DNA of 51,065 nt from NCBI GenBank assembly GCA_050735855.1, contig JBOHWA010000762.1:1-51065 (forward strand). The letters run 5' to 3'. This document shows, in pieces, positions 21,001-24,000 of the stretch. The position numbers are program-made. How positions within the stretch are numbered: position 1 is the stretch's first letter; each line of letters starts with the position of its first letter. The stretch is from Candidatus Binatia bacterium (GTDB lineage: Bacteria > Desulfobacterota > Binatia > HRBIN30 > CADEER01).

Positions 21001-24000
21001 TACAATGACTGGCGGCTGCCGAATCGCTTGGAGCTGGAGACGCTGGTCGATGCGGGCCGCACGAGTCCCTGCATCGATCCGGCGTTCAACACCGGGTGTG
21101 CCGGGGGTTGCACGGTGACCACCTGCAGTTGCACGCAGACCGACACCTACTGGTCCTCAACCACCTACAAGTCGACACCTACCAGCGCATGGCAGGTGTA
21201 CTTCAACCTCGGCGACGTAATCGGCAGCCCCAAGACTGCTACTCACTACGTTCGCGCCGTTCGCGGCAGCTCGTGAGCGGGTGAGGAAGTTTGAAGACTT
21301 GAACCACGGATTGCACGGATTCTGGAGCGCTCGTATCCGTGTGGTCCGTGCAATCCGTGCCTGCATCTCGCTCAGCCAACGGCACGGGAAGCTCGCAACC
21401 CTCATCTCGATCCTCTCCCGCGCTGGATGCGCCGAGAGGAGGTATGCGGCGACCGTGGATCTCGCGGACTCCACCGACTCGCACCGAGCCAAAGCCGGGT
21501 AGCGCTTGATCAGCCGCCGCGCGATCGAACCCCCGAGCCCTTGCGGGCTGCCGGTTTTCAAGTGCGCCGGGGTGGGTGTTGCCGTGTCCCTCGTCGTGCC
21601 GTGGTGTCCGGGAAACACGGCCCGATCGCTTGGCGTCGTTACCCAGCCGTCCCTCGTCGTCTCGCTCCGTGCCGCGGCGTTGATTTGCAGAATATTTGCA
21701 GGAGGGGGTCTGGTGGATTCTGTCGGGATTCGCCGAACCTCACCGCGTGCGGCTACTGCGGGCCGCCGCGCGTTTGGTCCGGACAGTCTTCCTGCCGCGC
21801 ACCGGGGCAGCGCCCTGGCCGGCTGGTCCGGCTTCGCCGAGATCCTCAAAGCGCACGCCCTTGCCAGCGCGCAGGCTCGCTCGCGCGGCAGCTATGCGCT
21901 CAAGGAAACGTGGGTCGTTCTCCAGCTTGTAGTCGAACCAGTCGTCTTCCGAGTCGAAGCCGATCAACACGCCGGCCACCTTGCCGTGGCGCGTGATCAG
22001 GATCTCCTCCTTGGCTGCCTGGCGCAGGTAGCGGGACAGATCATCCTTCACCTCCGACAATGCCACTTCTTTCATGTATCCTCTCCGCCTTCCTCTGGCG
22101 TCTCGTGCTCGCCATGCCGCCCCAGCCACGCCGCGGCCTCGGGCTTCGCCACGATCGCCAACACCTCGACGCGTCGCTCCACTACGTCGTAGAAGATCCG
22201 AATGTCGTCGACTCGCAGGCGATACTGCGGTCGGCGCATGCCGCGCAGTCGTTTGACTCGGCTCTTGCTCGTCTTGGTCGGCTCATGGCGAAGATGGTGC
22301 TCCATCCCGTCCCGGACTGCGGCGCGATCGGCCGCCTTCAGCGCCTTGAAATCCCCCACCGCCTCCGGCGCCAGAATGACCTCATGACGCATTCTGGCCA
22401 GATTGTAGCCAGAATGCCGAGCCTGCCGCAATCGGCGAGGTTCGCGCCGCTTGCGTGCCAAACCGTTTTCAGCCGCTCGCAGCGACGCCGCCGAGCGGAC
22501 CCGACCACGGCCGCTGCTGGGAGAGCCGCTTCGACAGCGCCTGGGTGCAACGCAACGACGCCGCCCACTTCAGGGCGCGGTGCCCCCGCCGCACTCCCGC
22601 CGGCACAGAGCAGTATGCCGAGTGAAGGCATGATGCTCCGCTCGGGCGCGGGCCACTTCACGCGGAAGTGCGCGGACAGCCGTGGAGCGAGCGATTGACG
22701 GCGGTGATCAGCTCGTTGATCGCAATGCGGCCGTTGCCGTTCGCGTCGCCCGCCGCGCAGACGTCGACGGGCCGATCGAACAGCGACAGATTGACCATCA
22801 GGATCAGCTCGTTGATGGTCACCTGGCAGTTGCCGTTGCAGTCGCCGGCGCAGGGCAGGAGGCATTGCGGCTCGCCGGTCGGCGTCGCGGTGGCAGTGCC
22901 CTCGACGAGCGCGGACCCGGTGGCGGTAGCGGTAGCGGTAGCAGTGGCGGTTGCGGTTGCGGTGCCGGAGCCAGCAGTGGTGCGCGTCGCGGTGGCCGTC
23001 GCGCCCTGCGGACTCTGCGTTGTGGTGGCGGCGGCGGTGTGCGTTGGCGTCGCGGTACTGCCGACGTCCGCGGTCTGCGTCGCGGTCGGCGTCAGCGTCG
23101 CGATCCCGCCCGGGGTATCCGTGGCGCTGCCTACCGCCGTTGCCGTGACCGTCGCCTCGCCACCCGGCGTTTCGGTGGCGACGGCGGTTTCGACGCTGGT
23201 GGGCGTGGCGGTTTCCAGCCCGCCCGGAGTGTCGGTCTCCGCGGGCGTGCCGGCGCCGGTCGGCGTGGACGTCGCGGGTGCGCCGGGAGTGATCGTGGCG
23301 GTGGCACCCTCCGGCGCCGTTGCCGTCGGGGTCGCGCCGCCGCCGGCGGTCTGCGTGGCCGCGGCGGCGCCAGTGGCCGTCGGCGTGGCCGTGTCAGCGC
23401 CGCCTGGGGTCTCACTGGCGACCGGCGTGCCCATGACCGTCGCGGTCGTCGTCGGTCCTTGCGACATCGGGGTAGCCGTTGCGGTCGCGGCGGCACCGAG
23501 GGTGGGTGTCGCCGTGGCGGTGCTGGTCGCCGCAGCGGCGGGGGAGATCGTCGGCGTGCCGGTCTGGGTGGCGGTGGCAGTGGCGGCAGCCGTGTGAGTC
23601 GGCGTGATGGGGCTCGTTCGCGTCACCGTCGCGGTGGGGGTCGGCGGCAGCGGGGTGGGCGTCGGCGTCGGTTGTGCCGCCGGCAAATCGACCAGGGCGA
23701 GGATGAGCGAGAGGCAGTCGACGTTCGAAGCCTGACCGGCGATGGTGAGCGTGAACGGCCCCTGGCCCGCGAACAGGGTGCTGACGTCGAAGCGGTGGAT
23801 GTCCCACAGGCTGCCCGATCCGCCCTGCGCGGTGGCGCGACCGTGGCCGGCATCGGGAACCGACAGGCCGTCCCAGCGCTGTGCGGTGTCGCCGACGTTC
23901 AACGGTACCCCGCCGGTGGAGAACCCGACCGCGTTGTCCGCCAACCCCTGACCGTCGGCGACGTGCAGCTCGGCGAACACCGAACCGCCGTGGTACGCGA

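What the first reader, a model, noticed from the sequence alone, without database searches (positions are those of the whole stretch)
22661..22864. Cys-bracketed dockerin-like double EF-hand tails on the two proteins downstream of the giant gene
Both downstream proteins end in two ~22-aa segments of the dockerin type, each a Ca-loop followed by a helix. The 643-aa protein has 'GDCNGNCQVTINELILMVNLSL' and 'GDANGNGRIAINELITAVNRSL' (22661-22864). The 279-aa protein has 'GDCDGGGHVAVPEVIRVVNIAL' and 'ADADGDGLVRIDDLIAAVRSAM' (24690-24875). Each module is enclosed by conserved Cys (C-x-G-D-C ... C ... G-C) and is connected to its N-domain by a long Thr/Pro/Ala linker. No recognisable cohesin is encoded nearby. 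The tails could tether these proteins to the giant or 861-aa protein, or to the cell surface, as accessory or cargo subunits.
Basis: partly seen in the sequence, partly recalled or inferred. Interest (0 to 1): 0.6.

Follow-up and report, generated by a model that had tools for sequence, protein, structure and literature searches.

The report
Generic four-cysteine dockerin tails, not operon-specific
The two tails are real calcium-loop "dockerin" plugs braced by four cysteines, but the same plug sits on about 125 unrelated secreted proteins of this uncultured bacterium and probably docks them onto cohesin "sockets" encoded elsewhere in the genome, not onto the neighbouring giant protein.

Summary
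Both minus-strand proteins downstream of the giant gene end in a 59-aa module, C-x-G-D-C…C…G-C, with two EF-hand-type loops each followed by a helix (nt 22676-22852 and 24693-24869), reached through Thr/Pro/Ala linkers. Pfam scores stay below threshold, but an AlphaFold model (pLDDT 93) matches only dockerins.

- This genome holds about 125 full copies in 124 reading frames.
- Their cargo falls into 96 unrelated sequence clusters.
- About half the copies are C-terminal; most of the rest follow a signal peptide directly.
- All 30 sampled relatives of the same order have 10 to 150 or more matches.

No cohesin is in the window. A lineage-specific profile nevertheless finds 29 cohesin modules in 19 frames of this genome. 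Their fold is confirmed (TM 0.77-0.83 to solved cohesins). Nine of the 19 are fused to a four-Cys dockerin or lie within 5 kb of one. One is a two-cohesin protein with a MYXO-CTERM-like anchor, next to two dockerin genes.

Best reading: a generic, disulfide-clasped plug for a non-cellulosomal cohesin-dockerin display system. Binding is untested. This scan had already noted the module in other Binatia windows. I found no paper on it.

The parts
22676..22852 (-). Four-Cys dockerin module of the 643-aa protein (aa 580-638). Loops are DCNGNCQVTINE and DANGNGRIAINE.
   Evidence: Translation. Genome-derived HMM E = 4e-24. AF2 pLDDT 93 and dockerin fold matches.
22853..23608 (-). Thr/Ala/Pro/Gly-rich linker of the 643-aa protein (about aa 328-579)
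   Evidence: Composition T 0.32, A 0.25, G 0.11, P 0.10. The frame is supported by GC3 of 0.84-0.89.
23609..24589 (-). Signal peptide (…GAARA|TP) and about 300-aa N-domain of the 643-aa protein. The domain has no named family and also occurs in other phyla with other anchors.
   Evidence: No Pfam, NCBIfam or PDB match. Homologs at 36-52% identity in Xanthomonadales, Verrucomicrobiota and Actinobacteria MAGs, two of them ending in PEP-CTERM-like tails.
24693..24869 (-). Four-Cys dockerin module of the 279-aa protein (aa 220-278). Loops are DCDGGGHVAVPE and DADGDGLVRIDD.
   Evidence: Translation. HMM E = 8e-23.
24870..25091 (-). Thr/Pro-rich linker of the 279-aa protein (about aa 146-219)
   Evidence: Sequence; composition.
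25092..25526 (-). Signal peptide (…SAARA|SF) and about 100-aa N-domain of the 279-aa protein. A copy of this domain follows the giant gene in all four loci found.
   Evidence: Ortholog in G014:C65, and paralogs on own contig C945 and on G014:C185, each directly after a giant homolog and each ending in a four-Cys module.
25531..35001 (-). Giant protein (about 3156 aa), context only. It carries neither a dockerin nor a cohesin.
   Evidence: Frame by GC3. No Pfam hit. No module or cohesin-profile hit on this contig.
35136..37736 (-). It carries neither a dockerin nor a cohesin.

Best explanation
Each tail is one copy of a 59-residue, lineage-wide module with the dockerin fold: two calcium loops, each followed by a helix. 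It is braced by two disulfides. The outer pair (first and last Cys) closes the N- and C-termini, at the position where known dockerins have a non-covalent 'clasp'. The inner pair links loop 1 to the stretch before loop 2.

The module is a free-standing plug on a flexible Thr/Pro tether. After Sec export it folds with Ca2+ and oxidised cysteines. It then most likely inserts into one of about 30 divergent cohesin modules encoded elsewhere in the genome. Some of these sit on scaffolds with a C-terminal MYXO-CTERM-like anchor; others are fused to dockerins, which would allow chains.

The 279-aa and 643-aa proteins would therefore be two of more than 100 unrelated secreted proteins displayed by a general cohesin-dockerin system of this order of Candidatus Binatia. 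They would not be subunits held by an operon-private contact.

Shown: the sequence, the copy number, the placement, the predicted folds, and the fusions and synteny. Inferred: the disulfide pairing, calcium binding, cohesin binding and surface location.
For: - Fold: the AF2 model has pLDDT 93 and three helices. The top 23 Foldseek PDB hits are all dockerins (TM 0.53-0.64), while calmodulin-type hits have rmsd about 10 Å.
- Generic use: 125 full modules in 124 frames. Cargo falls into 96 BLAST clusters, 77 of them singletons. A sample includes a Vgb-lyase-type propeller, a PQQ propeller and a PI-PLC, and 7 of 10 have no Pfam family.
- Placement: 56 copies are C-terminal, at least 38 directly follow a signal peptide, and a few are internal; flanks are T/P-rich. 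This is the behaviour of an autonomous binding module.
- Spread: 31 of 31 genomes of the order have matches. The global library holds 8,348 cluster representatives at E <= 1e-10.
- Partner exists: relatives have cargo-dockerin-cohesin fusions. An iterated profile finds 29 cohesin modules in 19 own-genome frames. That profile hits solved cohesins at E = 3e-10. An AF2 model with pLDDT 95 gives cohesins for all top 50 Foldseek hits, with TM 0.77-0.83 to the best of them.
- Linkage: 9 of 19 cohesin frames are fused to a four-Cys dockerin or lie within 5 kb of one, against 2.4 expected; 0 of 2000 permutations reached 9.
- Cassette: contig C467 carries two dockerin genes followed by SP-Coh-Coh-linker-MYXO-CTERM-like tail (TIGR03901, 23.5 bits on the tail alone). 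By coordinates the same cassette recurs in at least 8 relatives.
- Co-variation: dockerin and cohesin match counts across 31 genomes give Spearman 0.86, or 0.77 per Mb.
- Disulfides: of 329 modules, 304 have all four Cys and 10 have lost the outer pair together while keeping the inner pair. The first Cys sits at -2 from the conserved Gly, the clasp position of known dockerins (PMC3821032).
- Anchor swap: homologs of the 643-aa N-domain in other phyla end in PEP-CTERM-like anchors where this protein has the tail.
Against: - No binding has been measured, and I could not run a complex prediction.
- Pfam Dockerin_1 and the EF-hand models stay below their gathering cut-offs on both tails. Only 14 of 88 family members reach Dockerin_1 at E < 0.01.
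- Cohesins detectable with Pfam do not track the module count (rho -0.01). The correlation with the lineage profile is between related genomes and partly reflects genome size.
- The genome also holds other dockerin types that could be the cohesins' true partners.
- The MYXO-CTERM match passes its cut-off only on the isolated tail.
- The disulfide pairing rests on co-loss in about 3% of copies. The model coordinates could not be inspected.
Confidence: 0.68

Rival explanations
1. Operon-specific tether: the two tails bind the giant or the 866-aa protein and hold the small proteins on it as accessory or cargo subunits.
For: The genes are tightly packed on one strand. In all four loci found (window, own contig C945, G014:C65, G014:C185) the small protein directly after a giant homolog ends in a four-Cys module.
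Against: The same module occurs about 125 times on unrelated cargo. The two tails share only 41% identity and are closer to tails elsewhere in the genome. The giant and 866-aa proteins have no cohesin-like module, even with filters off, and no Pfam hit. Homologs of the 643-aa N-domain elsewhere never neighbour a giant gene.
Confidence: 0.07
2. Partner-less calcium module: the four-Cys module binds Ca2+ and acts as a stabilising cap, or attaches proteins to a non-protein matrix such as exopolysaccharide, an S-layer or a mineral surface. The cohesins would serve the other dockerin types in the genome.
For: By sequence the loops are closest to canonical EF-hands, with Glu at position 12. Matches outnumber cohesin matches by about 4 to 1. 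Other dockerin types co-occur with cohesins in single proteins, for example on C634.
Against: Fusions, adjacency and the conserved cassette link cohesins specifically to four-Cys modules. The fold is dockerin, not an EF-hand pair. A 4 to 1 ratio or higher is normal in cellulosome producers (my own knowledge, not tested here).
Confidence: 0.17
3. Export or sorting signal: the module is recognised by a dedicated secretion or sorting machine, in the way that T9SS C-terminal domains or PEP-CTERM tails are, and is not a docking plug.
For: It occupies the place that PEP-CTERM-like tails hold in homologs from other phyla. Nearly half of the copies are at the extreme C-terminus.
Against: At least 38 copies sit directly after the signal peptide and some are internal or tandem, which a position-dependent signal would not tolerate. 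The module has no hydrophobic helix or basic cluster. It is a folded 59-aa domain with a known binding fold.
Confidence: 0.05

Closest known systems
Type I dockerin-cohesin pairs of cellulosomes (Pfam PF00404 and PF00963; for example C. thermocellum 1OHZ/2CCL, C. acetobutylicum CaDoc0917-CaCohA2 6KGC)
   Same: - Duplicated loop-helix (F-hand) segments about 32 residues apart.
- The same predicted folds for both plug and socket.
- Modules sit on Thr/Pro linkers at protein ends.
- Many plugs per socket.
- Scaffolds with tandem cohesins and a cell anchor.
   Different: - Four invariant Cys.
- Glu rather than Asp at loop position 12 in most copies.
- Below the Pfam cut-off.
- The host is a high-GC lineage with a MYXO-CTERM-like anchor instead of SLH or sortase.
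- In the sample scanned, the cargo is not carbohydrate-active enzymes and is mostly of unknown family.
- Frequent N-terminal placement.
Non-cellulosomal cohesin/dockerin modules (Peer et al. 2009, cited in PMC3821032; Archaeoglobus fulgidus cohesin 2XDH; C. perfringens NagH-NagJ 2OZN)
   Same: Cohesin and dockerin folds used outside cellulose degradation. 2XDH is Foldseek hit 4 for the cohesin model, and 2OZN is among the dockerin hits.
   Different: Those cases involve a few modules per genome. Here there are about 125 plugs and about 29 sockets in one genome, with a disulfide-braced plug.
Intramolecular clasp of dockerins (Slutzki et al. 2013, PMC3821032)
   Same: Residues at -1 to -3 from the conserved Gly contact the C-terminal end and stabilise the Ca-bound fold. 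Here the first Cys is at -2 and the last Cys ends the module.
   Different: The known clasps are non-covalent (stacking or salt bridge), and that paper mentions no cysteine. Here the clasp would be a disulfide, inferred from co-loss.
EF-hand pairs (calmodulin, calcineurin B; PF00036, PF13499)
   Same: Canonical 12-residue loops. The family profile hits EF-hand proteins in the PDB at E = 1e-6, and 58 of 88 copies hit EF-hand_1 at E < 0.01.
   Different: There is no entering helix before loop 1. Structural superposition on calmodulin-type chains is poor (rmsd about 10 Å, TM about 0.33). The module is extracellular and disulfide-bonded.
C-terminal surface-sorting tags (PEP-CTERM, MYXO-CTERM TIGR03901)
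   Same: The module occupies the same position on homologous cargo in other phyla. It probably serves surface retention.
   Different: It is not a transmembrane signal. It is a folded domain that also occurs N-terminally. In this genome the MYXO-CTERM-like tail is on the cohesin scaffold, not on the cargo.

Membership tests
Dockerin type I (Pfam PF00404) | Two tandem segments of about 22 residues, each a Ca-binding loop followed by a helix (F-hand), with no entering helix | tested here: met
   Sequence. The AF2 model has helices at 16-27, 32-38 and 48-60 and none before loop 1.
Dockerin type I (Pfam PF00404) | Score at or above the Pfam gathering cut-off (22.9 bits) | tested here: not met
   The 643-aa tail scores 14.1 bits and the 279-aa tail gives no hit. 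14 of 88 family members match at E < 0.01. A few copies elsewhere in the genome pass the cut-off.
Dockerin type I (Pfam PF00404) | Dockerin three-dimensional fold | tested here: met
   Predicted model only. Foldseek ranks 1-23 are all dockerins: probability up to 0.99, TM 0.53-0.64, rmsd 2.3-4.3 Å. E-values are weak (0.05 and above) because the domain is short.
Dockerin type I (Pfam PF00404) | Ca2+-dependent binding to a cohesin | not testable with these tools
   Indirect evidence only: fusions, adjacency, a conserved cassette and co-variation of counts.
EF-hand domain pair (PF13499 / PF00036) | Helix-loop-helix pair forming the four-helix EF-hand lobe, and a score above the Pfam cut-off | tested here: not met
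   The loops are canonical, but scores are below the cut-off (22.7 against 25.4 bits). No entering helix. Calmodulin-type chains superpose at rmsd about 10 Å.
C-terminal sorting signals (PEP-CTERM / MYXO-CTERM) | Strictly C-terminal motif plus a hydrophobic helix plus a basic cluster | tested here: not met
   No NCBIfam match on either tail. The tails have no hydrophobic helix. The module also occurs right after signal peptides and internally.
Cohesin (PF00963), for the proposed partner modules of this genome | Cohesin beta-sandwich fold and sequence homology to solved cohesins | tested here: met
   The profile of 29 own-genome modules hits cohesin chains at E = 3e-10 to 4e-3. The AF2 model has pLDDT 95, and the top 50 Foldseek hits are all cohesins. 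The Pfam cut-off itself is reached by only one frame in this genome, on C634.

The most novel reading that the evidence does not exclude
One order of Candidatus Binatia runs a very large cohesin-dockerin system. In this genome about 125 reading frames carry a disulfide-clasped dockerin, at either end of the protein. These plugs insert into about 30 divergent cohesins on anchored or self-chaining scaffolds. The result would be a general, calcium- and redox-dependent display system for over 100 mostly unknown proteins. Within it, the 279-aa protein family would be the adaptor that moors the giant-protein complex to the cell.
Probability: 0.4. Interest if true: 0.75.

Novelty: new variant of a known kind. 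Interest (0 to 1): 0.5.

Why it matters
For this finding, the result removes a tempting but wrong inference. The tails say nothing specific about the giant-gene operon.

For the lineage, it points to something larger. The cohesin-dockerin principle is best known from cellulosomes of Gram-positive anaerobes. Here it appears to be the main way an uncultured, widespread soil and sediment order hangs proteins on its envelope. It uses a covalently clasped dockerin variant that public annotation calls 'hypothetical protein' and that I found in no paper of the library.

The module is also a practical marker for the secreted and surface proteome of these bacteria. If binding is confirmed, disulfide-stabilised cohesin-dockerin pairs would be of interest as protein-assembly parts.

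Tried and rejected
- Pfam and NCBIfam on the whole proteins and on the isolated tails gave only sub-threshold EF-hand and Dockerin_1 hits and no NCBIfam hit.
- Pfam on the N-domains, the giant and the 866-aa protein gave nothing. PDB sequence searches on the 643-aa N-domain, the giant's C-terminal 1199 aa and the 279-aa protein gave nothing beyond EF-hand noise on the tail.
- Pfam Cohesin in the own genome gave one hit just above the cut-off, and it belongs to a different dockerin type. Pfam cohesin counts in relatives did not track module counts. I therefore built a lineage-specific profile instead.
- I tried to fold a natural cohesin-cohesin-dockerin protein (C894) as a test of docking. The mixed alignment A2 left the cohesin region uncovered, so I dropped it and folded a single cohesin module instead.
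- One search failed because the coordinates were out of frame.
- The class-wide search used too strict a threshold (1e-25). It only shows that the strongest matches lie in families f1 and f2. The range beyond the order rests, where only 3 other-order genomes of the class were sampled.
- I looked for the giant, 279-aa and 866-aa genes next to homologs of the 643-aa N-domain in other phyla and found none.
- The organism's name could not be read from the coded genome handles. 'Candidatus Binatia' rests on the NCBI labels of two homologs and on earlier notes of this scan.
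Full report
**What is there**

The window is contig C762 of a 5.98-Mb, 1209-contig metagenome-assembled genome with about 69% G+C. Third-position G+C along the minus strand shows four tightly packed genes:
- an 866-aa protein (37736..35136);
- a giant protein that really starts near 35001 (about 3156 aa, ending at 25531);
- a 279-aa protein (25526..24687);
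- a 643-aa protein (24589..22658).

The module lies at aa 580-638 of the 643-aa protein (nt 22676-22852) and at aa 220-278 of the 279-aa protein (nt 24693-24869). Both proteins start with a signal peptide. Both reach the module through a Thr/Pro/Ala-rich linker, about 250 aa and about 70 aa long.

**Is it a dockerin?**

On the isolated tails EF-hand_1 reaches 22.7 bits (cut-off 25.4) and Dockerin_1 reaches 14.1 bits (cut-off 22.9). NCBIfam finds nothing.

I aligned 88 copies from the same genome (A1). Six columns are invariant: four Cys and the first Asp of each loop. A profile of A1 hits EF-hand proteins in the PDB at E = 1e-6, so the loops are canonical.

The fold is different. An AlphaFold model with pLDDT 93 has no helix before loop 1. 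Its 23 best Foldseek matches in the PDB are all dockerins (TM 0.53-0.64). Calmodulin-type chains superpose at about 10 Å rmsd.

So the module has a dockerin architecture and fold with EF-hand-like loops, and it is a divergent subfamily that Pfam's model mostly misses (14 of 88 copies at E < 0.01).

**Is it operon-specific?**

No. An HMM built from the genome's own copies finds 125 full-length modules in 124 reading frames.
- With the module masked, the carrier frames fall into 96 BLAST clusters, 77 of them singletons.
- A sample of ten carriers includes a Vgb-lyase-type propeller, a PQQ propeller, a Ca-dependent PI-PLC and seven proteins with no Pfam family.
- Fifty-six copies lie within 10 residues of the stop codon.
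- At least 38 lie two to four residues after a signal-peptidase-I-type site. Reading the remaining frames by eye, the true number is probably about 50.
- A few copies are internal or tandem.

The two tails of the window share only 41% identity. The 643-aa tail is 58-59% identical to tails on unrelated contigs.

All 30 sampled relatives of the same order have the module: 33 to 150 or more matches per genome in the window's own family, and 10 to 93 in the three other families.
- In a phylum-wide sample of 151 genomes, only this genome and one other of the same order had matches at E <= 1e-12. That sample included only three genomes from other orders of the class.
- A library of 1.84 billion cluster representatives holds 8,348 proteins at E <= 1e-10, again with the module at either end of the protein.

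**What does it plug into?**

The window has no cohesin, and Pfam's Cohesin model finds only one marginal hit in the genome. That hit belongs to a different dockerin type, with the motif '…SALDAARVLQ…ACDVTGDG…'.

Earlier notes of this scan reported cohesin scaffolds in other Binatia genomes, so I tested that lead.
- Pfam-level cohesins occur in 28 of 31 genomes of the order.
- In two relatives I found proteins in which a four-Cys module is followed directly by a C-terminal cohesin.
- Starting from those cohesins, an iterated profile finds 29 modules in 19 frames of the window's own genome. It finds none on contig C762, even at E = 100 with filters off.
- These modules are true cohesins. Their profile hits solved cohesins at E = 3e-10 to 4e-3. 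An AlphaFold model of one of them (pLDDT 95.3, pTM 0.89) has only cohesins among its 50 best PDB matches, with TM 0.77-0.83 to the best.

**Linkage between plug and socket**

- Five of the 19 cohesin frames also contain a four-Cys module, and four more lie within 5 kb of one. That is 9 of 19 against 2.4 expected; 0 of 2000 random placements reached 9.
- Contig C467 carries, in a row, two genes ending in four-Cys modules and then a gene for signal peptide, two cohesins, a Thr/Pro linker and a Cys-containing hydrophobic, Arg-rich end. That end matches MYXO-CTERM: TIGR03901 at 23.5 bits on the tail alone, 16.9 bits in the whole protein, cut-off 20.
- By coordinates, the same arrangement (two dockerin genes, then a two-cohesin gene) recurs in G001, G002, G003, G006, G009, G010, G011 and G014. 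The dockerins of this cassette are among the best-scoring of all.
- Across the 31 genomes, match counts of module and lineage cohesin correlate: Spearman 0.86, or 0.77 per Mb, at about four plugs per socket. The genomes are related and both counts grow with genome size, so this figure is descriptive only.
- Three further public proteins combine the tail with PF00963.

**The cysteines**

Of 329 full-length modules (own genome plus the best global hits), 304 have all four Cys. Ten have lost the first and last Cys together while keeping the two inner ones. No clean case of the reverse was seen. This suggests the pairs Cys1-Cys4 and Cys2-Cys3.

Cys1 sits two residues before the conserved Gly that precedes the first Asp, and Cys4 ends the module. 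Slutzki et al. (PMC3821032) showed that residues at -1 to -3 of known dockerins form a non-covalent 'clasp' with the C-terminal end, and that this clasp stabilises the Ca-bound fold and cohesin binding. That paper mentions no cysteine. The outer disulfide here would be a covalent version of the clasp. I could not inspect the model coordinates, so this remains an inference.

**The cargo proteins and the operon**

The N-domain of the 643-aa protein (about 300 aa, no family) has homologs at 36-52% identity in MAGs labelled Xanthomonadales/Dokdonella, Verrucomicrobiota and Actinobacteria.
- None of them has a giant, 279-aa or 866-aa neighbour.
- Their C-terminal parts differ. Two end in PEP-CTERM-like tails; others carry extra domains.
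- So the same cargo is fitted with a different surface anchor in each lineage, and the four-Cys tail is this lineage's version.

The 279-aa protein behaves differently.
- The 866-giant-279 block has an ortholog in G014 (54-73% identity; that contig ends just after the 279-aa ortholog). It also has a paralog on own contig C945 and on G014:C154/C185.
- In all four loci the small protein after the giant ends in a four-Cys module.
- Giant homologs were found in only 2 of 121 genomes of the class.

The 279-aa family is therefore a conserved partner of the giant gene. Its N-domain, rather than its generic tail, is the more likely contact with the giant protein. This adaptor idea is speculation.

**Comparison with what is known, and novelty**

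Cohesin and dockerin modules outside cellulosomes are known (Peer et al. 2009, cited in PMC3821032; PDB 2XDH and 2OZN appear among my fold hits). What differs here is:
- the four invariant cysteines;
- the scale, about 125 plugs and about 29 sockets in one genome;
- the frequent N-terminal placement;
- the non-enzymatic or unknown cargo;
- a MYXO-CTERM-like anchor on a scaffold.

Public sources call these proteins 'hypothetical protein', with no Pfam domain or only EF-hand hits. Two NCBI hits are labelled Candidatus Binatia bacterium. Full-text searches found no paper combining Binatia or Binatota with dockerin or cohesin, or dockerin with MYXO-CTERM.

This scan had already noted four-Cys dockerins and cohesin scaffolds in other Binatia windows. 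The family is therefore not new to the scan. This report adds:
- the census and the placement at either end of proteins;
- the own-genome cohesins and the conserved cassette;
- the anchor swap in homologs from other phyla;
- the cysteine co-loss pattern.

**Verdict**

The operon-specific tether is not supported. The most likely mechanism is generic Ca2+-dependent, disulfide-stabilised docking onto cohesin scaffolds encoded elsewhere. I am nearly certain that this is a generic dockerin-fold module, and put cohesin binding at about two in three.

Noticed in passing
window 21525-21567 and 40698-40740: A perfect 43-bp direct repeat brackets about 19.2 kb that contains the whole 866-giant-279-643 block. 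On the minus strand the repeat reads like the 3' part of a tRNA-Ser(UGA). ARAGORN finds no intact tRNA in the window. Giant homologs occur in only 2 of 121 class genomes, which fits a mobile island.
   Followed up: partly
G000:C945:1-12500 (L061); G014:C65 (L047); G014:C185 (L060): A paralogous and an orthologous copy of the 866-like, giant-like, 279-like gene block. In the paralogs the 279-like N-domain is followed by Cys-rich mini-modules resembling segments of the 866-aa protein, and then by the four-Cys tail.
   Followed up: partly
G000:C467:about 690-4600: A three-gene cassette. Two proteins end in four-Cys dockerins (498- and 364-aa frames), followed by signal peptide, cohesin, cohesin, Thr/Pro linker and a MYXO-CTERM-like tail. 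By coordinates it is conserved in at least 8 relatives.
   Followed up: partly
G000:C634:about 2443-5694 (L001), and C411, C503, C28, C948, C680, C475, C833, C12: A second, different dockerin-like type ('…SALDAARVLQ.VAGLR…ACDVTGDG.LS.LDA.RILQ…'). On C634 the same 823-aa frame also holds a zinc-protease-like HEIGHTLGFGH motif and the genome's only Pfam-level cohesin. A third type, 'GDANCDG…', also exists.
   Followed up: no
L009 and L019 (homologs of the 643-aa N-domain in other phyla): The unnamed N-domain of about 300 aa (motifs …LYWHG…, …FDDGNPAN…, …WDIH.FD…) occurs in Pseudomonadota, Verrucomicrobiota and Actinobacteria MAGs with PEP-CTERM-like or other C-terminal parts. It is a widespread secreted domain with no family.
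   Followed up: partly
window 22826-22828 and 22862-22864 (aa 588 and 576 of the 643-aa protein): The 643-aa tail has two Cys beyond the usual four. One is at loop position 6, where Gly is usual. The other is four residues before Cys1. They may form a third disulfide.
   Followed up: no
L035 (G013:C86) and L036 (G008:C3): Clusters of four consecutive genes with four-Cys modules. Two genes in each cluster have the order protease-like (HE..H) cargo, dockerin, cohesin ending in C.GC.C, so they could self-assemble into chains.
   Followed up: no
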